This document shows, in pieces, positions 39,240 to 47,158 of a DNA stretch of 64,000 bases. A program made the position numbers and the translations under genes. Location of the stretch: contig JAQTMG010000003.1 of NCBI GenBank assembly GCA_028714455.1, forward strand, positions 39,834 to 103,833, in the 5' to 3' direction. The stretch's first letter is position 1; each line of letters begins with the position of its first letter. The notes beneath the pieces were generated by a model that worked only from the letters and a program-made list of their open reading frames with translations, did not search any database and was not told where the DNA came from. This stretch comes from Patescibacteria group bacterium. Its GTDB lineage: Bacteria > Patescibacteriota > Patescibacteriia > CAIXNZ01.

Positions 39240-39629
39240 TTATTCTTTTTTAATTGAAGTAAATAAAAAGGTAACGCAAATTATGGCCGCGCAGGCGCCG
39301 ACCAAAATACTCAAGTAGCCCATGCCCTGCAAAAAATAAATGACAAATATGCCAAAAAGTGTTGAGAGCAAAATCATCGTGGAATAATCCAGAAATTTCA
39401 TTTTCTTCTGTTCGCCTTCTTCTTTCGGATAAAATAAAACTGTAATCGCGCCGAGAATCAATAAAATCGCCAAATAAATTCCCAGATTAATATAGTTCAA
39501 AAAAATTCTTGGCTTAAAATATTCAATAAAAGCAAAAATGGTGAGAATCGCGAACATCGCCAAAAATAAATCGCGAATAATTATCAAAATTATTTTCTTA
39601 AAATTATCGGGCAAATTGAACTTTGGCAT
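39240..39629 (-). CDS. Hypothetical membrane protein
   Basis: Four TM helices. Confidence 0.35.
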   Translation of the reverse strand: MPKFNLPDNFKKIILIIIRDLFLAMFAILTIFAFIEYFKPRIFLNYINLGIYLAILLILGAITVLFYPKEEGEQKKMKFLDYSTMILLSTLFGIFVIYFLQGMGYLSILVGACAAIICVTFLFTSIKKE

Positions 39630-40188
39630 AATTGTAATAATTTAATAAATTATTATATAAACCTTCTTGTAAAAGCGGCGCGCGCTCTAATGTTATTTTA
39701 ACACGCCTAATGAAAACCGGCTTGTCCGCGCTCAAACCAGGAATTGAAATCATAAAGCGCAGTTTTCCCTTATTTATATTTTTACCAGCCATATCATAGA
39801 CCAAGCTACTGATTTTGTATCCGTCATCTGCCGAAGAACTATTATCAAGCGGCTTTAACTCCCAATCAGCGCCGATATTTGGTCCAATTTTTATTTTGTA
39901 TTTAAAATCATCTTTATATTCTATTTCTAAATCGGCTTTCTGGAAATCGCGAGGCAAAGATAAATCAAAATAAACAGGATCGTCCAAAACCTCGGGCGTC
40001 GAATCAATATTAATTAAACCCTGCGGTTTTAAAATGGAAAAATATGGAGTAAATTCTTTGAAGTCAGTAGAAACGATCAGTTTGCCGCTCCAAACCAGAT
40101 CCCGCGCGATTAAAAAAAATGCCAGGCATAATGATAAAAAAATAACCGCGGCGACAATGATAGCTGGAATGTTTTTTTGATTATTCAT
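39604..40188 (-). CDS. Hypothetical membrane-anchored protein
   Basis: N-terminal TM segment followed by a beta-rich domain. Confidence 0.35.
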   Translation of the reverse strand: MNNQKNIPAIIVAAVIFLSLCLAFFLIARDLVWSGKLIVSTDFKEFTPYFSILKPQGLINIDSTPEVLDDPVYFDLSLPRDFQKADLEIEYKDDFKYKIKIGPNIGADWELKPLDNSSSADDGYKISSLVYDMAGKNINKGKLRFMISIPGLSADKPVFIRRVKITLERAPLLQEGLYNNLLNYYNYAKVQFAR

Positions 40189-41818
40189 TGGAAAATTTAA
40201 TTTTATATAAATAATCGGTGTTCAAAATCCAAGCCCCAAAAATCAACGTTAAATTATTTTTCGTCAGCTCCTGCCTGACTGACGCGGTCTCACCATTACT
40301 GGTTGAAAAATAATAGAGCGGAACCCCCGTGTTGAGTAATTTCGACAAACTTTTTACTTCACTGGAATTGAAAATCACGACCTTTCTTTCTGGAAAAAAT
40401 ATCTTATCGCTGCGCTGACTGACAATAACCGCGTTGTTTTCGGTCATACCGATAACAATCTTATCAATTTTTGTGTAATCGGCTATATTTTGTTTAATCT
40501 TTATAAGATTGTCATTGCCGGAAATAAAAACTACGTTGATTGACAGAGCCAAGAATAAAATTATCAAAAATAAACTTAAAAGCAAACGAATCTTTTTGTT
40601 CTGAAAAAGATTAATTAAATAAACAAAAAATAAAACGGCGAAAGGCAGCGATAAAATATAAATCGGCAAAAAATACCGCACGTACGAAATACCAATCATG
40701 TTTAAGGCCAGAGTCAATTTATCTTCAAATAACCAGCTGCCATAATAAATGGTCAGGTACAGACTGGCGAAAATTGAGCACGCGGCAAAAACTATCTGAT
40801 CTTTTTTCGCCTTTATTTTCCAAAGCACGAGTATGCCAAGCAGCGCCGGCAAAGAAAGCCACCAAAAAAGTGCAAAATAATATTTTATGATATTAATAAA
40901 AGCCAGGCCGGGATTAAAACCAAAAGGCAGGAAAAGAAACCCGACAAAATTTAGAATCAAGGCGTCGTTACCTACTCTGAATTCGGCTGGCAGTTGCGAA
41001 ATTAAATTTCCACCCTGACCCAAGCGCAGATAACCAAAAGATAAGAAGCTGCCGTAGGTTTCGGCGTTGCACAAAAGAATCGGCAAAAAAACCAAAGCCA
41101 TCACGGCCAAAAAAATTATGGCATACCACCACTCGATTTTTTTGTAATAAATTGCCAGCAGCGCGATAACAATGGGTAAAACCCAGAAAAATTCATTTGT
41201 TCTTATTGTTAAAGCCAGTGAAATGAAAAACGAACTCAAAATCAAAAACAATATATTATTTTTTTTGTTAAACTTATCAATTTTAATAAGATAATAAAAA
41301 CCTATTATCAAAAAAGTCAGAAAGCTAACATTGGGCAACATGAAAAAACTGGCATAATACCACCAGGCCGGATTAATAAAAAATAAAAGCGCTGACAAAA
41401 AACCAATTCTCTTTCCAAAAATTAATTTAATCAATTTATAAAAATAAATACCCGCGATTATTGCCAAAAGGGGTGTCAGTAAAACAACCAGATCAAGGCC
41501 GACCACTTTCCCTATCAGGCCATAAATTAAAAGCATGCCCAAAAAAGAACCTGGCACCAAAGCCCCTTGATAAACGTTAAAGCTGCGCGGCTTGACTACT
41601 TCATCGGCAATCAAATTAAGAGGCTCTGAAACCGATAAATTGCTGGTCTGGATATAATTTTTGATGAAAAAATAGTTGGCCGTTTCGTCGGGCCAGGTGA
41701 ATTTTGCCGATAAATTATTATAAATCAAAAAAGAATAAACAAAAAAGAAAATAACCGCCAGCGCAGCTAAAATTAAGGAAATTATCACATTATTGAATTT
41801 TTTGCGGATTACCTCCAT
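40181..41818 (-). CDS. GT-C-fold polytopic membrane glycosyltransferase-like protein (ArnT/PMT-like)
   Basis: 545 aa with more than 10 TM helices. It has aromatic-rich loops and the typical GT-C/PMT_2 topology. Confidence 0.45.
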   Translation of the reverse strand: MEVIRKKFNNVIISLILAALAVIFFFVYSFLIYNNLSAKFTWPDETANYFFIKNYIQTSNLSVSEPLNLIADEVVKPRSFNVYQGALVPGSFLGMLLIYGLIGKVVGLDLVVLLTPLLAIIAGIYFYKLIKLIFGKRIGFLSALLFFINPAWWYYASFFMLPNVSFLTFLIIGFYYLIKIDKFNKKNNILFLILSSFFISLALTIRTNEFFWVLPIVIALLAIYYKKIEWWYAIIFLAVMALVFLPILLCNAETYGSFLSFGYLRLGQGGNLISQLPAEFRVGNDALILNFVGFLFLPFGFNPGLAFINIIKYYFALFWWLSLPALLGILVLWKIKAKKDQIVFAACSIFASLYLTIYYGSWLFEDKLTLALNMIGISYVRYFLPIYILSLPFAVLFFVYLINLFQNKKIRLLLSLFLIILFLALSINVVFISGNDNLIKIKQNIADYTKIDKIVIGMTENNAVIVSQRSDKIFFPERKVVIFNSSEVKSLSKLLNTGVPLYYFSTSNGETASVRQELTKNNLTLIFGAWILNTDYLYKIKFSNE

Positions 41819-41857: not shown

Positions 41858-43912
41858 ATGGCAAAGATAATAAAACTAATTAGCTTTTTTTGTTTACTTT
41901 TAGCGGTTTTGATCAATTTTGACTGGTTAAAAATTCCAGCCTTAAGTATAATTTTAGGCTTGGTTTATTTTTTAATCTTTGGCTATCTGCTGGGGAAAAA
42001 TATCTTCAAAAGCCAGGAAGTTAGTTTCCAAACAATTCTCGGCATTTTCTCATTGATTTCTCTCTACTCCCTACTGGGAGCTGTCATCTATTATCTCTAC
42101 CAACTTGATACTTTAGCTATCAACGTTTTGCTCGTCATAATCTCTGGCTGTATTCTCTATCCAGAAATTGTAACTGAAAGCAAAATGCCAGAAATAAAAT
42201 GGCCAAAAACAAACCCGGCTTCAATTATTTTAACTATCACCTACCTTATAATCACCGCTGCCAGCTTTATCGTTCTTTGGCATTCGCAAACCACCGAAGC
42301 CATTTTTACTCCCTGGCAGGTCATACCCAGAGAATTTTTCGCGCTTTATGTTTTGGCCACAGTCAATTTATTACTAATAATTTTTAGAAATAAAAATTTT
42401 CTCACCCCGTTTTTGATTGTTATGCATTACTTTCTGACAATCAGCGTGGCACTCATAATTTACAAGCTCGGCTATGGCTTTGATCCTTTCATTCACCAGG
42501 CCACGGAAAAAGTAATTTTTGACAAAGGTCTAATTTTGCCAAAACCATTTTATTATCTTGGACAATATTCTCTGGTTGTTTTCCTGGCTAAATTTTTACA
42601 ACAATCGGTTGATTTAATTGACAAACTCCTGCTGCCCATCTTACTTTCAGTATTTTTGCCTTACACGATTTACAAGAGTTTAAAAAAAACTTTTGACTGG
42701 CAAAAAAGCATTACTTTAATTTTGGGATTAAGTTTCCTGCTTCTTCCTTTCGGCCTTTTTATCGCCACCACGCCGCAAGCTCTGGCGGGATTTTATTGTC
42801 TGGTAATTATTTTCTTGTCTTTTTTATATTTTCAGAATAAACAAATTCCTCTGGCCGCTCTTATTTTATTGGCTCTGACGACCATTGCCATCCATCCAAT
42901 CGCCGGCCTGCCGATTTTAATCTACCTTATTATTCTGTATCTTGTAAAAAACTTAAATAATCTCGCGGTGAAAATAATCTTGCCGATTTTCTGCGCGCTC
43001 TCGGCTTTTATTTTGCCGATTGCCTTGCTTTTCAATTCATTTATCTCAATAAACAAAGTCAGCTGGCTGCCAAATTCAGTCAGCTTCATTGATTGGCCCA
43101 GCATCTTTATGACTCAATTCAGATTTTTTCCTGATCTGGCTTATCTTTACCGAAATTTTATCTATTGGCTTTTCATTCTGATTGCCCTAATCACCTTCGC
43201 CTATTTAATTAAAACGAAAAGGGCCAAAATCTTTGTCGCGTCACTCATAACTTTTGCCATTCTGGTTATCAACGCTTTTTTACTAAATTTTATTAAAGTT
43301 AATTACATTATTAATTACGAACAAGGCGATTTTAGTCGACGAGTCTGGCAAATAGCTTTTTATTTTCTGCTACCGATTGTTTGTTATGGACTTTATTTCT
43401 TCATTCAAAAAGCCTGGCAAAAATCCGCTGTCTATAAAATATTTTTAATCGTTTCTCTTACCCTTTCTCTCACTCTTTGCTTATATTTAAGTTATCCGCG
43501 CTTTGATGACTATGACAACAGCAAGTTTATCAATGTCAGCGCCGCGGATTTTCAAGCCGTTCAATTCATCGACAAAGACAGCGCCGGACAAAATTACATT
43601 GTGCTGGTCAACCAGATGACCAGTGCCGCCGCCCTGCAAACATTTGGCTTCACAAATTATTACAACAATAATTATTTTTACCCGATTCCAACCGGCGGCG
43701 ATCTTTATAAATATTATGAAAAAATGATTTACACCGAGACCTCAAAAAAAACAATGGTCGCGGCCATGGATTTTGCCAAAGTAAAACTCGCCTATTTTGT
43801 CTTGCCGACTTATCTTAAAACATTTACACAAATCGACCAGAAAGCCGAGAGCAGCGCCGATATGGTCTATAACATCGGCGATAAGATCTATATTTACAAG
43901 TACTCAAAATAA
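41858..43912 (+). CDS. Large polytopic membrane protein (possible GT-C-like glycosyltransferase / YfhO-like)
   Basis: 684 aa with more than 12 TM helices, divergent from the preceding GT-C-like gene. Confidence 0.4.
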   Translation: MAKIIKLISFFCLLLAVLINFDWLKIPALSIILGLVYFLIFGYLLGKNIFKSQEVSFQTILGIFSLISLYSLLGAVIYYLYQLDTLAINVLLVIISGCILYPEIVTESKMPEIKWPKTNPASIILTITYLIITAASFIVLWHSQTTEAIFTPWQVIPREFFALYVLATVNLLLIIFRNKNFLTPFLIVMHYFLTISVALIIYKLGYGFDPFIHQATEKVIFDKGLILPKPFYYLGQYSLVVFLAKFLQQSVDLIDKLLLPILLSVFLPYTIYKSLKKTFDWQKSITLILGLSFLLLPFGLFIATTPQALAGFYCLVIIFLSFLYFQNKQIPLAALILLALTTIAIHPIAGLPILIYLIILYLVKNLNNLAVKIILPIFCALSAFILPIALLFNSFISINKVSWLPNSVSFIDWPSIFMTQFRFFPDLAYLYRNFIYWLFILIALITFAYLIKTKRAKIFVASLITFAILVINAFLLNFIKVNYIINYEQGDFSRRVWQIAFYFLLPIVCYGLYFFIQKAWQKSAVYKIFLIVSLTLSLTLCLYLSYPRFDDYDNSKFINVSAADFQAVQFIDKDSAGQNYIVLVNQMTSAAALQTFGFTNYYNNNYFYPIPTGGDLYKYYEKMIYTETSKKTMVAAMDFAKVKLAYFVLPTYLKTFTQIDQKAESSADMVYNIGDKIYIYKYSK

Positions 43913-43999
43913 GGGGCGAAAACGCTTTCACGTAAAAAACGCTGCCGTAGAGACAGGGTATACCCTGTCTCTACTTTTTATTCAAGGCGTTTTCGCCCC
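43913..43999. repeat. Structured palindromic repeat, copy 3
   Basis: GGGGCGAAAACGC..GCGTTTTCGCCCC outer IR around core GTAGAGACAGGGTATACCCTGTCTCTAC (43947-43974). Confidence 0.85.
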
Positions 44000-44030: not shown

Positions 44031-45256
44031 TTAATATTTCCCAATATTTTTTACGTAAGTTCCTGCTTCGCCCGAATAACGAATCAAAAAAACGTCATAA
44101 AGAACCGCGTCTACCTCTTGCCACAAATTCTCGGCCGTTTCTCTAATAATGAAACACTGCATGCCGCTTAGCTTAAGATACAACGGCCAAATTTTTGTCT
44201 CAAAATCATCCTTTTGTTCAAGCGCTTTTTTTAGGTTAAAAATGGTCAGGCGCAAACGCAACTTAAACTTCCGAGTATTGCGCACCTGGCCATCAACCAC
44301 ATTCAGTCCTAACGTGTGCAGAATATGCCCTCGTCTGGCAAAATATGATTTATGCAAATAGTAGCGCTGATAATAGGCTCCTTTATTTTGCCACCAACCA
44401 TCTGGGTCAGGCGCCTCTTTCAGTTCATAACCCCTTTTAGCGATACGAAAAACCGCTGAAATAACGGGCGCATGCCACACAATGCAACCGCGATATTTCT
44501 CAATATCTTCCTGACCCGCTGGTTTCACAAAGTAATCGTCAGCGGAGGGATCATCTGGCCGTTCTTCGCCGCGCTCAATGTGTCTTTTTTTTGTTTCCGG
44601 CCAAAATTCTGGCGCTGTGATAAAAATGTTGTCCGCGTAACGTACGTAAGTACCCCTGATGTTCTTGGCTAGCTCGGAAAGCTCGTAATCAAAGGGTTCA
44701 AAACAAAAATCAAACAAGCGCGGGCTGGTTGGCGCGCCTTGTGGCAAACCAAAAGCCGGTAGCCCCTTTTTCTTTTGATTAAACCAGGTCGTCAAACAGG
44801 TCAAATAATAAGAGGCGTAATAACCGTACTTTTTTGACTTGAAAAAATTGAAGACCGCGCGACCGCTTGTCGAAGGAAAAGCATCCTTCACGTCAGTCGT
44901 AAAAACCGCCTGGTCTGCCTTAGCAATAGCCAATGCCGCCTCTTTGACTCCACCGCCAGAAAATCCATAGACATTTCTATGACGGTCCAGCGGCTCAAGA
45001 ATATTTTTGTTGACAGCCCGCTGAATTGTCATCAAATCAGGGTGCGGAATCTGTAAAATTCTTCTGCCGCCGCTTCTTTTAGCAATTGTAATGGTTGAAT
45101 AAAGCCATGGACTCCTGACAATTGCCGCCCACAAAATTCTACGGAATTTTTCGAAATCATTAAAAGGATAATTCAGTTCAGCGAACAAATACCAGGCTGC
45201 TTTTCTGCCTGATTCCCTTAATAAGGGATTTTTAATGCGCTCACGCGATTTCAACA
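44031..45256 (-). CDS. Stand-alone reverse transcriptase (retron/DRT-like; motif C = YADN)
   Basis: RT motifs in order: 1/2 RRILQIPHPDLMTIQRAV, A FTTDVKDAF, B' GLPQGAPTSPRLFD, C YVRYADNIF. The proposed start is TTG 45256, 8 nt after AGGAGG; the ORF track's ATG 45383 would add 42 aa lacking an RBS. GC content is elevated. No maturase, endonuclease or other fused domain was recognised. Confidence 0.75.
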
Positions 45257-45294
45257 ATATTATCACCTCCTTTCCATGTTTTTTGTTTTCAAAG

Positions 45295-45695
45295 AAAAGG
45301 GAGGGGTAAATTCCCCTCCCACCGCTGGTTACTCGCGAATCGCAAGCTGTGCGTGTACCGATCAAGAACCGGGTGATTTGCATATTGCCGTCAGAATTCT
45401 GACAGCCCCTTTCGGCTATTTTAGGATCTCTTAGGGTTCCGGCAATAAAGCTAACTGTCTTGATCTAATTTCGGATTTTAGGGTTAGGGAGGGGTGCAAG
45501 ATTTATACATTTACTTCAAGTTTTGGTTATCCCCTCTCCTTCTAATTAAACCGAATTACCGAGCCAGTTACCTTCGCCGAAAATTATCTAGAGAAGGATA
45601 CGCAGTTTATGTACCTAACTCAAGTTTCGGCTAATCCTTCTCTTTATCCTATTTGGCCTCAAAGCTCGCTAACCAGCGAATGATAATACTTTAGT
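45295..45695 (-). ncRNA. Candidate RT-associated structured ncRNA (about 380 nt) directly upstream of and co-oriented with the RT
   Basis: Minus-strand promoter-like TTGACT-17 nt-TAAAGT at 45716-45688. Two paralogous long hairpins have conserved loops (AAACTTGA..GTA.ATAAA) and different, individually complementary stems (GAGAAGGAT/ATCCTTCTC versus GGAGAGGGG/CCCCTCC). There is a 14-bp palindrome GTCAGAATTCTGAC. The 3' end is a GC-rich hairpin GGGAGGGG-AATTTA-CCCCTCCC followed by TTTTCTTTG just before the RT RBS. Confidence 0.4.
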
Positions 45696-45766
45696 TAAAA
45701 TTTATTAAAAAGTCAAGAAAAAAAGAACCTACATTTACGGGGCTCTTTTAATTTATTTTAACCTAT

Positions 45767-47158
45767 CTATTGTATTTTCCCGTCAATTACCGAGACCGCG
45801 TTTGAGCAACTAAAATTATCCGAGTTATCCACACTGCAAACTTTATAATAATATGCTCCCACGCTGGTGATGTTAACTTCTTTGTCTAAATAATTTTCCT
45901 CCTTGATTTTTCTGGTCGTAAGTTTATCGGCTGAATACGCAGGTGACATATTATAAGCCGAACGCAAAATCGCATACTCTTTAAAATCAGAATCAGAATT
46001 TTTCGTCCAGTTTAAATTAACGCCGCTTTCAGAAATGGTGGCTGACAAAACCGGCGCCCGGGGCGGAGTCGTATCTTTAACTTCTTCGGCTTGGCCAAAC
46101 TGCGCGCCGATAACGTTGCCGCAAGCTACGTTGCCATCCAGCTTCACCACGCAGATTCTATAATAATATTTCTTGCCCTGCTCTGGCGAGGCATCGAGAT
46201 AAGAATTGGTTTCTTTGCCATCAAAAGATTTAATCGAACCATCGGCTGGAAATTTCGGCGAGGCGTTTGTTTCAGATCTGACGATTTGATAATTTTTGAA
46301 ATCATCGCGATTGTAGACAGACCAGGCCAGATAAATACCATTCTCTTTATTGGTCAGAGTTAAAAGTAGGCTGTCAATGACTGTTTCAAATTTGGGAGCG
46401 GTTTGGACTGCCGGGTTTAAACCTTTGTCTAAATCAAAATTCCATTTGTACCAAGGGTCGCTTTGCTGCAAGCCGGCGCTGGCAAAATTATCAATTTTTA
46501 ATATGTCTTTTTTGGCCGCAGACAAATTCAGACTGGCTTTTTCGTTCGGATCTAGACGCATGCCGACAATCAAATTATTATCGGCGTCTCGCGCTTCAAC
46601 TTCCACTTTTTTGTCAATCGCCAATACGGTTACGCTTTTTGACGCCGTCTCATTAATTACTTCGAATTTCGTGCCAAGCGCGGTTACTATCGCGTTTTGG
46701 GCCATAACCTTATAATTCGCGCCAACGCTCAAGTTGTAATAAACCCTGCCCTGCGTCTGCTTGACTATAAAATTTGTTTCGTCGGTATCTTGAAAAATGA
46801 TTTCCGTATTTTCCGCCAGCCTGATTATCGAGCCGTTTTCAAAATTCAAAATCGCTCGGCCATCGGCTGCCGTCTTTATTTTATCGCCCCGATGAATTAT
46901 CGTGTCAACGACTGCGGTCGCGTAATCTTTGTTTTCCACTGACATCTGGACGCCGCCGTAAATGCCAGACAGGCTCATTAAAATATTTTTACTTGACGCT
47001 ACCTGATTATTTTCGGCGGCCGGTTTCCCGATTTCAATTTTCGAAAAATAATTCGTGTAAAACCAGTATAAGAAAAATCCCGCGGCGACAATCACTCCGG
47101 CCGCGATCAGCCACTTGACGGGACTGGCCTTTCTTTTGTAATAATAAATCGCGCTCAT
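45767..47158 (-). CDS. Membrane-anchored FecR-domain protein with fibronectin-III-like repeats
   Basis: TM anchor, FecR-like segment DGRAILNFENGSIIRLAENTEIIF and two FN3-like Cys-containing modules. Confidence 0.45.
   Translation of the reverse strand: MSAIYYYKRKASPVKWLIAAGVIVAAGFFLYWFYTNYFSKIEIGKPAAENNQVASSKNILMSLSGIYGGVQMSVENKDYATAVVDTIIHRGDKIKTAADGRAILNFENGSIIRLAENTEIIFQDTDETNFIVKQTQGRVYYNLSVGANYKVMAQNAIVTALGTKFEVINETASKSVTVLAIDKKVEVEARDADNNLIVGMRLDPNEKASLNLSAAKKDILKIDNFASAGLQQSDPWYKWNFDLDKGLNPAVQTAPKFETVIDSLLLTLTNKENGIYLAWSVYNRDDFKNYQIVRSETNASPKFPADGSIKSFDGKETNSYLDASPEQGKKYYYRICVVKLDGNVACGNVIGAQFGQAEEVKDTTPPRAPVLSATISESGVNLNWTKNSDSDFKEYAILRSAYNMSPAYSADKLTTRKIKEENYLDKEVNITSVGAYYYKVCSVDNSDNFSCSNAVSVIDGKIQ

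What the first reader, a model, noticed from the sequence alone, without database searches (positions are those of the whole stretch)
44625..44640. RT motif C reads YADN instead of canonical YxDD
Direct translation of the minus strand (rc of 44628-44636 GTTGTCCGC = GCG GAC AAC) gives Y-A-D-N-I-F. The second aspartate of the catalytic YxDD box is replaced by Asn (GAC to AAC, a single transition). In RTs both aspartates coordinate Mg2+. This could mean a catalytically impaired or mechanistically unusual RT (for example a protein-primed or template-restricted mode). It could also be a recent inactivating mutation or an assembly error.
Basis: seen in the sequence. Interest (0 to 1): 0.6.

Follow-up and report, generated by a model that had tools for sequence, protein, structure and literature searches.

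The report
Retron-like reverse transcriptases with conserved YADN
The odd YADN active-site motif is real and is not a mutation or an assembly error: it is the selected hallmark of an apparently undescribed family of retron-like reverse transcriptases from candidate-phyla-radiation bacteria, each paired with its own conserved structured RNA and no partner toxin gene.

Summary
The reverse complement of 44628-44639 reads Y-A-D-N, in frame in an intact 408-aa reverse transcriptase (RT; 44031..45257, minus strand).

Asn is invariant in 34 aligned homologues down to 26% identity and in every readable sequence among the ~80 top-scoring (>190 bits) 50%-identity cluster representatives. It is encoded by both AAT and AAC.

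The substitution is coupled to a reciprocal change in motif B:
- Ordinary retron-type RTs carry SPxLxN plus YxDD (77 of 161 proteins tabulated).
- This clade carries SPRLFD plus YADN (77 of 161).
- There are 7 exceptions.

All other polymerase motifs are conserved. The closest folds are retron RTs.

Every member examined has a conserved upstream non-coding RNA that is absent from Rfam. Its order is: promoter, covarying closing helix (a1/a2), invariant G, invariant hairpin CUGUCAGAAyUCUGACGG, terminator-like hairpin, ribosome-binding site. No effector gene is shared. Neighbours are housekeeping genes, and the locus is syntenic and co-diverging across candidate-phyla-radiation (CPR) lineages. 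No member was found in the phage, plasmid or viral collections.

Most likely this is an active but tuned retron-like RT working on its own RNA. Catalysis and priming were not tested. I found no description of the clade in the searchable literature.

The parts
44031..45257 (-). RT coding sequence, 408 aa, TTG start. The 450-aa ATG-started ORF that runs to 45383 is a spurious 5' extension over the leader RNA.
   Evidence: Pfam RVT_1 E=6e-12; AlphaFold2 model pLDDT 88, pTM 0.83; best PDB fold matches are retron RTs
45045..45080 (-). RT motifs 1-2 (fingers), KRSGGRRILQIP. R66 and P71 are nearly invariant in the clade.
44868..44903 (-). Motif A, FTTDVKDAFPST. Holds the catalytic D122 (invariant). 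A126 and F127 are invariant; F127 is at the register of the HIV RT Y115 steric gate (register from my own knowledge).
44709..44747 (-). Motif B, LPQGAPTSPRLFD. It ends in D183, which replaces the Asn of ordinary retron-type RTs (Ec86 KLAN). By motif register this is the HIV-1 RT Q161 position.
44619..44648 (-). Motif C, YVRYADNIFI. D209 is the catalytic Asp; N210 (codon 44630..44628) is the residue flagged in the finding.
44349..44357 (-). Motif D / RT6, LHK. H302 and K303 are invariant. I interpret K303 as the motif-D general-acid lysine (inference).
44301..44312 (-). RT7 / region Y, LGLN, followed by ..NTRKFKLRLR. This takes the place of the retron VTG triplet. L316 and G317 are invariant.
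45688..45716 (-). Sigma-70-like promoter TTGACT-N17-TAAAGT for the leader RNA. TTGACT/TTGACA boxes with a 17-nt spacer occur at the same place in related loci.
45670..45678 (-). a1, the 5' strand of the closing helix (CGCUGGUUA).
   Evidence: covariation of the homologous helix in relatives:
45669..45669 (-). G immediately 3' of a1. It is present in 21/21 readable short-form RNAs and in the 9 long-form RNAs read by eye. It occupies the position of the retron branching (priming) G.
45387..45407 (-). P3, the family-defining hairpin GGCUGUCAGAAUUCUGACGGC. Its core 18 nt are almost invariant. It occurs once in the window.
45323..45331 (-). a2, the 3' strand of the closing helix (UAACCAGCG).
45285..45320 (-). 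Terminator-like G+C hairpin (45299-45320) plus the conserved tail UUUUCUUUGAAAAC (45285-45298).
45262..45271 (-). Ribosome-binding site AGGAGGTGAT of the RT gene.

Best explanation
YADN is the ancestral, positively maintained active-site signature of a distinct clade of retron-like RTs. Every member that carries a taxonomic hint comes from candidate-phyla-radiation (CPR, Patescibacteria) bacteria.

Shown:
- The Asp-to-Asn change in motif C is fixed across the clade.
- It is coupled to the opposite change, Asn to Asp, at the end of motif B.
- Every other polymerase motif is kept: the motif A Asp, the aromatic residue at the steric-gate position, QGxPTSP, the first motif C Asp, the motif D His-Lys and the primer-grip LG.
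- Each RT gene is preceded by its own promoter-driven structured RNA. Its parts, in order, are a covarying closing helix a1/a2, an invariant G directly after a1, a variable stem, an almost invariant hairpin CUGUCAGAAyUCUGACGG, a linker, a terminator-like hairpin and the ribosome-binding site.
- No effector gene is shared among loci.

Inferred:
- The enzyme is still a DNA polymerase. Its second metal site is weakened or re-tuned by Asn, making it slow, short-product or Mn2+-dependent, as in birnavirus ADN polymerases.
- It binds the invariant hairpin of its own leader RNA.
- As in retrons, it primes from the 2'-OH of the invariant G and copies the segment just 5' of a2 into a short cDNA.
- The RNA-protein(-cDNA) particle itself, not a separate toxin, is the functional output.
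- The terminator-like hairpin makes the RNA a discrete species, and RT translation depends on read-through.
For: Asn is conserved:
- Invariant in 17 close relatives and in the 34-sequence alignment.
- Of the top-scoring (>190 bits) 50%-identity cluster representatives, every one in which motif C could be read has xDN plus LGLN..HNTR; motif C was not read in about 20 (fragments, or my pattern did not match). Hits below about 185 bits are almost all ordinary YADD/VTG retron RTs.
- Both Asn codons are used.

Reciprocal swap:
- D+DN in 77 proteins and N+DD in 77, with only 7 exceptions.

Other catalytic residues:
- D122, A126, F127, G174, P176, T177, S178, D209, H302, K303, L316 and G317 are invariant.

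Retron kinship:
- PADLOC retron RT_III-A at 9e-34.
- NCBIfam retron_St85 at 3.7e-32.
- Foldseek best hits are retron Eco7, Ec78, Ec86, Ec83 and Eco2 RTs.
- A profile search of PDB sequences puts Ec86 first at 3e-38.

The RNA:
- The hairpin lies upstream of all 10 RT genes that were fetched by protein alone.
- An 18-nt pattern scan of metagenomes gave 111 hits. Of these, 27-31 are followed 600-900 nt downstream by an RT, and all of those RTs have xDN and none has xDD.
- The a1/a2 helix is 91-94% paired, with compensatory double changes in 6 of 8 pairs, against 27-52% paired in slid controls.
- G follows a1 in 21/21 sequences.
- The fold of the window RNA has z = -4.8.

Precedent for an active Asn:
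- PMC3394715 and PMC3121795.

Long residence:
- The locus is syntenic in the window, a Falkowbacteria genome and a Buchananbacteria genome. RT identity is 62% and 46%, against 53-81% and 45-69% for the flanking genes.
Against: - No biochemical datum exists. In HIV RT all three aspartates are described as essential (PMC3388302), so Asn could abolish activity with Mg2+.
- The RNA lacks a long msd-type hairpin inside the a1/a2 helix in the short forms.
- The window protein lacks the His of region X and the V-T of the retron VTG triplet. Retron-type priming therefore cannot be assumed.
- The layout of closing helix, then terminator, then ribosome-binding site is also what a cis-regulatory leader looks like.
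Confidence: 0.5

Rival explanations
1. Pseudo-enzyme. The clade has lost polymerase activity. The RT fold serves only as a sequence-specific RNA-binding protein for the leader RNA, acting as a scaffold, chaperone or autoregulator of its own operon.
For: - The second motif C Asp is described as essential in HIV RT.
- The region X His is missing in the window protein and the VTG triplet is altered.
- The RNA ends in a terminator just before the RT ribosome-binding site, which suits autoregulation.
Against: - Every other catalytic or substrate-binding residue is invariant over sequences as low as 26% identical: D122, F127, Q173-S178, D209 and K303. Pure RNA binding does not need these.
- Asn itself is invariant rather than drifting.
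- Natural ADN polymerases are active, and loss of the second Asp is rescued by Mn2+.
Confidence: 0.25
2. The upstream RNA is only a cis-regulatory leader (a riboswitch or attenuator). The RT acts on other substrates, as a domesticated host enzyme comparable to the G2L4 RT, which has YIDD and works in DNA repair.
For: - The architecture is that of a riboswitch: closing helix directly abutting a terminator, then the ribosome-binding site.
- Neighbours are housekeeping genes and inheritance looks vertical.
- There is precedent for an active-site variant marking a domesticated RT (10.1101/2022.03.14.484287 and PMC12337344).
Against: - Where an RT follows the motif, it always belongs to this RT clade.
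- The hairpin is conserved in sequence, not only in pairing, as expected for a protein recognition site.
- The nearest relatives of the protein are retron RTs, which use exactly such an upstream RNA as primer-template.
- An invariant unpaired G lies at the a1 junction.
Confidence: 0.15
3. Recent inactivating point mutation, or a sequencing or assembly error (GAC to AAC) in an otherwise ordinary retron RT.
For: The change is a single transition, and the window comes from an uncultivated organism.
Against: - Asn is invariant in all homologues from independent samples.
- Both Asn codons are used.
- An identical sequence occurs in a Logan assembly.
- The ORF is intact with a strong ribosome-binding site.
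Confidence: 0.01
4. Protein-primed RT in the manner of AbiK or DRT9.
For: The close subfamily has a conserved C-terminal IRYSGxxGT with a Tyr.
Against: - That C-terminal motif is absent from the wider YADN clade.
- DRT9 and Abi families are much poorer sequence and fold matches than retrons.
- A retron-like RNA with a candidate priming G is present.
Confidence: 0.05

Closest known systems
Retrons (RT plus msr/msd ncRNA; e.g. Ec86/Eco1, Ec78/Eco7, Ec83, Ec67/Eco2)
   Same: - Best sequence and fold matches.
- RT gene directly preceded by its own structured RNA.
- The RNA ends pair in a covarying a1/a2 helix, with a conserved unpaired G right after a1, where retrons have the branching G (features as defined in PMC7736814).
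   Different: - YADN instead of YADD.
- Motif B ends in D instead of N.
- xLG instead of VTG, and no region X His in the window protein.
- No long msd hairpin inside a1/a2 in the short forms.
- A terminator-like hairpin lies between the RNA and the RT gene.
- No effector gene, and no defence-island or mobile context.
- Scores below the NCBIfam retron cut-off (111.7 against 235).
Two-component RT + ncRNA defence systems without a separate effector (DRT2, DRT9)
   Same: A single RT gene plus an upstream structured ncRNA, with no conserved partner protein. In those systems the cDNA itself is the effector (my knowledge of the DRT2 and DRT9 papers; structures appear).
   Different: - Much weaker similarity: Drt2 27.9 bits against a cut-off of 390; Foldseek E of 1e-6 to 1e-5.
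- No stop-free ORF spans the closed loop of the window RNA.
- Different RNA.
Viral RdRps with Asn in motif C (birnavirus VP1 ADN; mononegavirus L GDN)
   Same: The same position (second acidic residue of motif C) is Asn in a naturally active palm-domain polymerase. In birnaviruses the tripeptide is literally ADN. GDN in mononegaviruses is from my own knowledge.
   Different: - They are RNA-dependent RNA polymerases of viruses, with no evolutionary link beyond the common palm fold.
- Birnavirus motifs are permuted to the order C-A-B.
G2L4 group II intron-like RT (YIDD)
   Same: A free-standing bacterial RT whose YxDD box carries a clade-specific substitution tied to a domesticated host function.
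   Different: - The substitution is at the x position, so both aspartates are kept.
- It belongs to the group II intron lineage and has no dedicated ncRNA.

Membership tests
Reverse transcriptase superfamily (Pfam RVT_1) | Match above the Pfam gathering score | tested here: met
   46.1 bits against a cut-off of 29.6, E=6e-12, residues 100-259 of the 450-aa ORF
Retron | RT closest to retron RTs in sequence and fold | tested here: met
   PADLOC retron RT models are the top hits. Foldseek top 17 hits are all retron RTs, TM up to 0.76 on the target. Ec86 is the best PDB sequence match.
Retron | Curated NCBIfam retron model cut-off (retron_St85_RT) | tested here: not met
   111.7 bits against a cut-off of 235. 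The match covers only up to motif C.
Retron | YADD catalytic box in RT5 | tested here: not met
   YADN, invariant in the clade
Retron | Region Y VTG triplet in RT7 (G is the most conserved residue; PMC7736814) | tested here: not met
   TLGLN in the window and aLGLN in the clade. Only the G is kept.
Retron | Region X NAXXH between RT2 and RT3 (H is the most conserved residue) | tested here: not met
   Ec86 NATPH aligns with the clade consensus AlkPH. The window protein reads AALAI, with no His.
Retron | Contiguous upstream ncRNA whose ends pair (a1/a2 inverted repeats) | tested here: met
   Window 45670-45678 pairs with 45323-45331. The helix covaries in relatives.
Retron | Conserved branching G next to a1 that primes through its 2'-OH | tested here: inconclusive
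   A G at that position is invariant, 21/21 and in the long forms. The 2'-5' priming itself cannot be tested with these tools.
Retron | msd region forming a long (10-50 bp) hairpin inside the a1/a2-closed RNA | tested here: inconclusive
   Short forms have only short stems between P3 and a2. The one long variable hairpin lies outside a2 and looks like a terminator. The window long form has internal roughly 10-bp hairpins on the a1 side.
Retron | Associated effector gene or domain (tripartite system) | tested here: not met
   No neighbour family is shared beyond lineage synteny. Neighbours are CysS, DnaX, EF-P, GreA and glycosyltransferases. The RT has no extra domain.
Retron | Production of msDNA | not testable with these tools
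   Needs expression and nucleic-acid analysis.
DRT2 / DRT3 / DRT9 (UG-type defence RTs) | Curated model cut-offs | tested here: not met
   Drt2 27.9 bits against 390; Drt3a 23.4 against 200. Fold matches are much weaker than to retrons.
Group II intron RT / maturase | TIGR04416 cut-off | tested here: not met
   35.2 bits against 300. Rfam found no intron RNA.
Any Rfam RNA family (for the leader RNA) | Match to a curated covariance model | tested here: not met
   There is no hit in 45258-45766 even at E<=1. At gathering threshold the window has only two tRNAs.

The most novel reading that the evidence does not exclude
The paired swap (motif C Asp to Asn, motif B Asn to Asp) marks a rewired polymerase centre in a CPR-wide, vertically inherited RT-RNA particle. 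On this reading the particle is not a mobile defence element. It is a resident cellular machine carrying out a non-canonical reaction, for example tightly limited or Mn2+-gated synthesis from an RNA 2'-OH. That would make it a new functional class of prokaryotic RT with its own new structured RNA.
Probability: 0.3. Interest if true: 0.85.

Novelty: new variant of a known kind. Interest (0 to 1): 0.68.

Why it matters
- **The YxDD rule.** Surveys treat YxDD as a near-universal feature of RTs and use its presence as evidence of activity. Here about 80 sequence clusters keep Asn under selection together with a compensating-looking change in motif B. Either RT chemistry tolerates, or exploits, an Asn at the metal-A site, or an RT fold has been repurposed.
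- **A new RNA.** The clade brings a new, strongly structured, easily recognisable RNA: an 18-nt near-invariant hairpin, a covarying closing helix and an invariant G.
- **An unusual setting.** The clade sits in the tiny genomes of CPR bacteria among housekeeping genes and has no toxin partner. [quoted passage not shown]
- **Testability.** The system has only two components, so it can be tested directly in vitro. If it makes short defined cDNA it could also interest retron-based genome engineering.

Tried and rejected
- **Literature.** 'YADN' or 'YXDN' with reverse transcriptase or retron, at word start and anywhere in a word, gave only irrelevant hits. Retron with Patescibacteria or CPR gave nothing on this clade. 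The library lacks most subscription papers, so absence is not proof.
- **Rfam.** No family matches the leader RNA.
- **Genome scan by protein.** The genome-contig scan was saturated by the generic LPQGAPTSP pattern and returned mostly ordinary retron RTs. Only L014 (Saccharibacteria) was a member.
- **Viral contigs.** The hairpin pattern gave 19 hits, none followed by an RT.
- **Phage and plasmid collections.** Only partial matches to ordinary RTs, no clade member.
- **Automatic a1/a2 detection.** RNAduplex with shuffled controls was noisy, with z mostly between -0.3 and -3.6. I replaced it with RNAalifold, pair counting and a covariance model.
- **Covariance model on long forms.** The model built from short forms forces a wrong 5' strand on the long-form RNAs, including the window at 27 bits. 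The long-form helix therefore rests on the single-sequence fold and on pairings read by eye.
- **DRT2-like 'never-ending ORF' idea.** No ORF of 50 aa or more spans the closed loop of the window RNA on either strand. I did not pursue it.
- **afdb50 fold library.** It was not available, so no UniProt taxonomy was obtained for the clade.
- **D183-N210 distance.** Model coordinates are not exposed, so the distance could not be measured.
Full report
**1. The observation**

On the minus strand, 44639..44628 reads TAC GCG GAC AAC (Y-A-D-N), followed by I-F. The codons are in frame in the ORF 44031..45383.

Homologues and the upstream sequence show that the real start is the TTG at 45257, five bases after AGGAGGTGAT. 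This gives a 408-aa protein. The extra 42 codons of the ATG-started ORF run over a hairpin and T-tract and are spurious.

In 408-aa numbering the flagged residue is N210. The protein is an RT:
- Pfam RVT_1 matches at E=6e-12.
- Motif A is FTTDVKDAFPST, motif B is LPQGAPTSPRLFD and motif C is YVRYADNIFI.
- A profile alignment to the solved retron Ec86 RT places RYADN opposite RYADD.

**2. Not an error and not a recent mutation**

A search of 5.8 billion proteins found 34 relatives with full-length similarity. All 16 close ones (35-100% identity) and all 18 more distant ones (26-42%) read R[Y/F]ADN. In the joint alignment A208, D209 and N210 are invariant.

An exhaustive profile search of 1.84 billion cluster representatives gave about 80 clusters scoring from 190 to 423 bits. 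My pattern did not read motif C in about 20 of these, which were fragments or did not match. Every one in which it could be read has xDN: mostly ADN, a few TDN or VDN. Those below about 185 bits are almost all ordinary retron-type RTs with YADD.

In 32 distinct genomic loci Asn is encoded by AAT 22 times and by AAC 10 times, next to GAC or GAT for the Asp. The amino acid is therefore held while the codons drift.

A Logan contig is 100% identical to the window over 7289 nt.

**3. What else defines the clade**

The ordinary retron-type RTs that appear as outgroups have motif B ending in SPxLxN, motif C YxDD and the region-Y triplet VTG. The clade has SPRLFD, YADN and aLGLNxIxGxxHNTRxFKRRLR.

Tabulating the two positions over all proteins fetched gives the following:

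| Motif B end | Motif C | Proteins |
|---|---|---|
| D | DN | 77 |
| N | DD | 77 |
| N | DN | 4 |
| E | DN | 1 |
| H | DN | 1 |
| D | DE | 1 |

The four N+DN proteins score lower and all read LFN.

The loss of a carboxylate in motif C is thus accompanied by the gain of one at the end of motif B. By motif register (Q151+10) that position is HIV-1 RT Q161, a site where a mutation confers resistance to the pyrophosphate analogue foscarnet. Whether the two side chains touch could not be measured here.

The other catalytic and substrate-contacting residues are invariant over the whole alignment:
- D122 of motif A.
- A126-F127, at the register of the HIV RT steric gate Y115 (register from my own knowledge).
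- G174, P176, T177 and S178 of motif B.
- D209.
- H302-K303 of motif D.
- L316-G317 of the primer grip.

This pattern is what is expected of a working polymerase, not of a decaying one.

**4. Fold and nearest relatives**

An AlphaFold2 model built on the 34-sequence alignment is confident (pLDDT 88, pTM 0.83). Foldseek against the PDB returns retron RTs first: Eco7/Ec78, Ec86, Ec83, Eco2 and Eco8, with E from 3e-14 down and TM up to 0.76 on the target. They are followed by G2L4, GsI-IIC, DRT2, DGR and DRT9.

PADLOC's best models are retron RT_III-A and RT_II-A. NCBIfam's best is retron_St85, but it scores 111.7 bits against a cut-off of 235.

Relative to Ec86:
- The window protein lacks the His of region X (NATPH in Ec86, AALAI here).
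- It has LG for VTG.
- The close subfamily also has an insertion of about 45 residues after motif C, at 215-260.

The protein is therefore retron-like, but it fails several retron signatures as defined in PMC7736814 and PMC4244168.

**5. The RNA that comes with it**

In every locus fetched by protein alone, a gap of 340-500 nt precedes the RT gene. All ten such RT genes carry, 100-200 nt before the start codon, the hairpin C[U/C]GUCAGAA[N][N]CUGA[C/U][A/G]G.

Scanning 241 million metagenome records for the exact 18-mer CTGTCAGAAYTCTGAYGG gave 111 loci:
- 27-31 are followed 600-900 nt downstream by RT motif B plus motif C. All of these read xDN and none reads xDD.
- A few more are cut by contig ends.
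- About 50 with long flanks have no RT and are compatible with chance for a 34-bit pattern.

The architecture is constant, in this order:
- A TTGACT/TTGACA-N17-TAnnnT promoter.
- About 10 nt later, a 7-12-nt strand a1.
- A G.
- A variable stem.
- The near-invariant hairpin.
- A linker of 55-75 nt.
- The complementary strand a2.
- Directly after a2, a G+C-rich hairpin of 8-20 bp whose sequence differs in every locus.
- A tail yUCUUUnAAAA.
- The ribosome-binding site.

RNAalifold on 14 short-form RNAs recovers a1/a2 and the hairpin. On that alignment the a1/a2 helix is 91% paired, with changes on both sides in 6 of 8 pairs. Sliding the partner by 1-3 columns drops pairing to 28-52%, and no shuffle out of 500 reaches the observed covariation score.

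A covariance model built from this alignment finds full-length matches in eight further loci. On the 22-sequence alignment the helix is 93.5% paired, again with 6 of 8 pairs covarying. That alignment is fitted to the model, so it leans towards the structure. The base after a1 is G in 21 of 21 sequences, and the base before a2 is G in 21 of 22.

The window belongs to a long-form subfamily with about 270 nt inserted between a1 and the hairpin. Here a1 is CGCUGGUUA (45678-45670), the G is 45669, and a2 is UAACCAGCG (45331-45323).

The single-sequence fold pairs these strands, with z = -4.8. Other long forms show different but complementary strands:
- L116: GUCAGGCUA / UAGCCUGAC.
- L007: GUAUCGGGGCUG / CAGCUUCCGAUAC.
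- L117: GCGGGGCUA / UAGUCCCGC.
- L004 compared with L184: a C-G to U-A exchange.

These pairings come and were read by eye. Rfam has no model for this RNA.

**6. Context**

No partner gene is shared. Neighbours are as follows:
- Window and two relatives: glycosyltransferases, a FecR-domain protein and a PMT_2-like membrane protein.
- Six other loci: CysS. Three of them also have DnaX upstream.
- Three loci, one of them Saccharibacteria: EF-P and a VirD4-like ATPase.
- Elsewhere: GreA, PolX and others.

The window, a Falkowbacteria MAG and a Buchananbacteria MAG hold the RT between the same genes. RT identity is 62% and 46%, which tracks that of the flanking proteins at 53-81% and 45-69%. This indicates long vertical residence.

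The named sources are all CPR (Patescibacteria):
- Falkowbacteria, Buchananbacteria and 'Patescibacteria group'.
- Saccharibacteria.
- Paceibacterota and Nealsonbacteria, through the adjacent CysS.

One contig carries two tandem RT genes, each with its own RNA. No member occurs in 50,697 phage or 72,556 plasmid records or in IMG/VR hits of the hairpin. The G+C content of the RT (0.44) is close to that of the window (0.41).

**7. How it most likely works**

Shown:
- A conserved two-part module of structured RNA plus RT.
- A retron-like RT fold.
- An intact set of polymerase residues except for the D-to-N and N-to-D pair.
- An RNA closed by a covarying helix, with an invariant unpaired G at the junction and a sequence-invariant hairpin.

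Inferred:
- The RT recognises the hairpin and uses the RNA as primer-template in the retron manner, with the G 2'-OH as primer and the template starting 5' of a2.
- The Asn tunes catalysis rather than abolishing it.

The inference about Asn rests on polymerase enzymology summarised in PMC3394715:
- The first Asp of motif C is the catalytic one.
- The second Asp binds ion A and a non-catalytic ion.
- Its mutation is rescued by Mn2+ in poliovirus RdRp and HIV RT.
- Birnavirus polymerases naturally carry ADN, and converting it to GDD raises activity.

PMC3121795 confirms ADN at the apex of the motif C hairpin. A slow, short-product or Mn2+-gated enzyme would fit a resident RNA-protein particle with no toxin partner.

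Three rivals remain:
- A catalytically dead RNA-binding RT fold.
- An RNA that is only a cis-regulatory leader for an RT with other substrates, with G2L4 (YIDD) as precedent for a domesticated RT carrying an altered box.
- Protein priming, for which there is no clade-wide evidence.

**8. Novelty and verdict**

I found no paper that mentions YADN or YxDN in an RT. No curated protein model is specific for the clade, and no Rfam family matches the RNA. The searchable library omits most subscription journals, so prior description cannot be excluded.

I rate the finding as a new variant of a known kind: retron-like RT plus ncRNA, with interest about 0.68. What lies behind it is a coherent, widespread and apparently undescribed RT-RNA family whose chemistry can be tested with a handful of mutants.

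Noticed in passing
window 45258-45383 (-): The mechanical ORF list gives a 450-aa ATG-started RT. The first 42 codons overlie the terminator-like hairpin, the tail and the ribosome-binding site of the leader RNA. Homologues start at the TTG at 45257. Gene callers that prefer ATG would mis-annotate the start and hide the RNA.
   Followed up: yes
window 45298-45307 and 45486-45495: The 3' arm of the terminator-like hairpin (ACCCCUCCCU on the RNA strand) is repeated exactly inside the body of the leader RNA, as the 3' arm of an internal hairpin. This could allow alternative (anti-terminator-like) pairing. A similar CCCUCCC is seen in L002 but not in L004.
   Followed up: partly
window 45605-45630 and 45500-45526 (-); L002 equivalent: The long-form leader RNAs of the window and L002 hold two paralogous internal hairpins. 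Their about 30-nt loops share CCRAAACUUGAnnUAAAnGUAyAUAA, which looks like an internal duplication specific to this subfamily.
   Followed up: no
window 45285-45298 (-) and all related loci: The tail after the terminator-like hairpin is conserved as yUCUUUnAAAA across the whole family, although the hairpin sequence itself varies freely. This is more than a plain U-tract would need. Its role is unexplained.
   Followed up: partly
L008 1428-2489 and 2837-3964: One metagenomic contig carries two tandem YADN RT genes (P0034 and P0027). Each has its own copy of the leader RNA, between a VirD4-like ATPase gene and efp.
   Followed up: partly
window 44031-44090 (-), C-terminus of the RT: The close subfamily (P0001-P0014) ends in a conserved IRYSGxxGT. 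This motif is absent from the wider clade. A conserved Tyr near the C-terminus is what protein-primed RTs use, but nothing else points that way.
   Followed up: no
window 43947-43974: A perfect 12-bp hairpin with T-runs on both sides lies between the convergent RT gene and the 684-aa membrane-protein gene. It is probably a bidirectional terminator.
   Followed up: no
window 45718-45746 (-): A separate hairpin plus a run of seven Ts right after the FecR-domain gene (45767-47158) ends that transcript, just before the promoter of the leader RNA. The RT-RNA module is therefore its own transcription unit.
   Followed up: partly
P0174, P0177, P0179, P0184: Four lower-scoring RT clusters combine xDN in motif C with LFN (not LFD) in motif B. 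They are possible evolutionary intermediates, which would suggest that the Asp-to-Asn change came first.
   Followed up: no
window 41858-43912 (+) and 39604-41818 (-): A 684-aa polytopic membrane protein has no Pfam match. Beside it is a 545-aa PMT_2-like glycosyltransferase. Both are conserved in synteny with the glycosyltransferase cluster in Falkowbacteria and Buchananbacteria genomes.
   Followed up: partly
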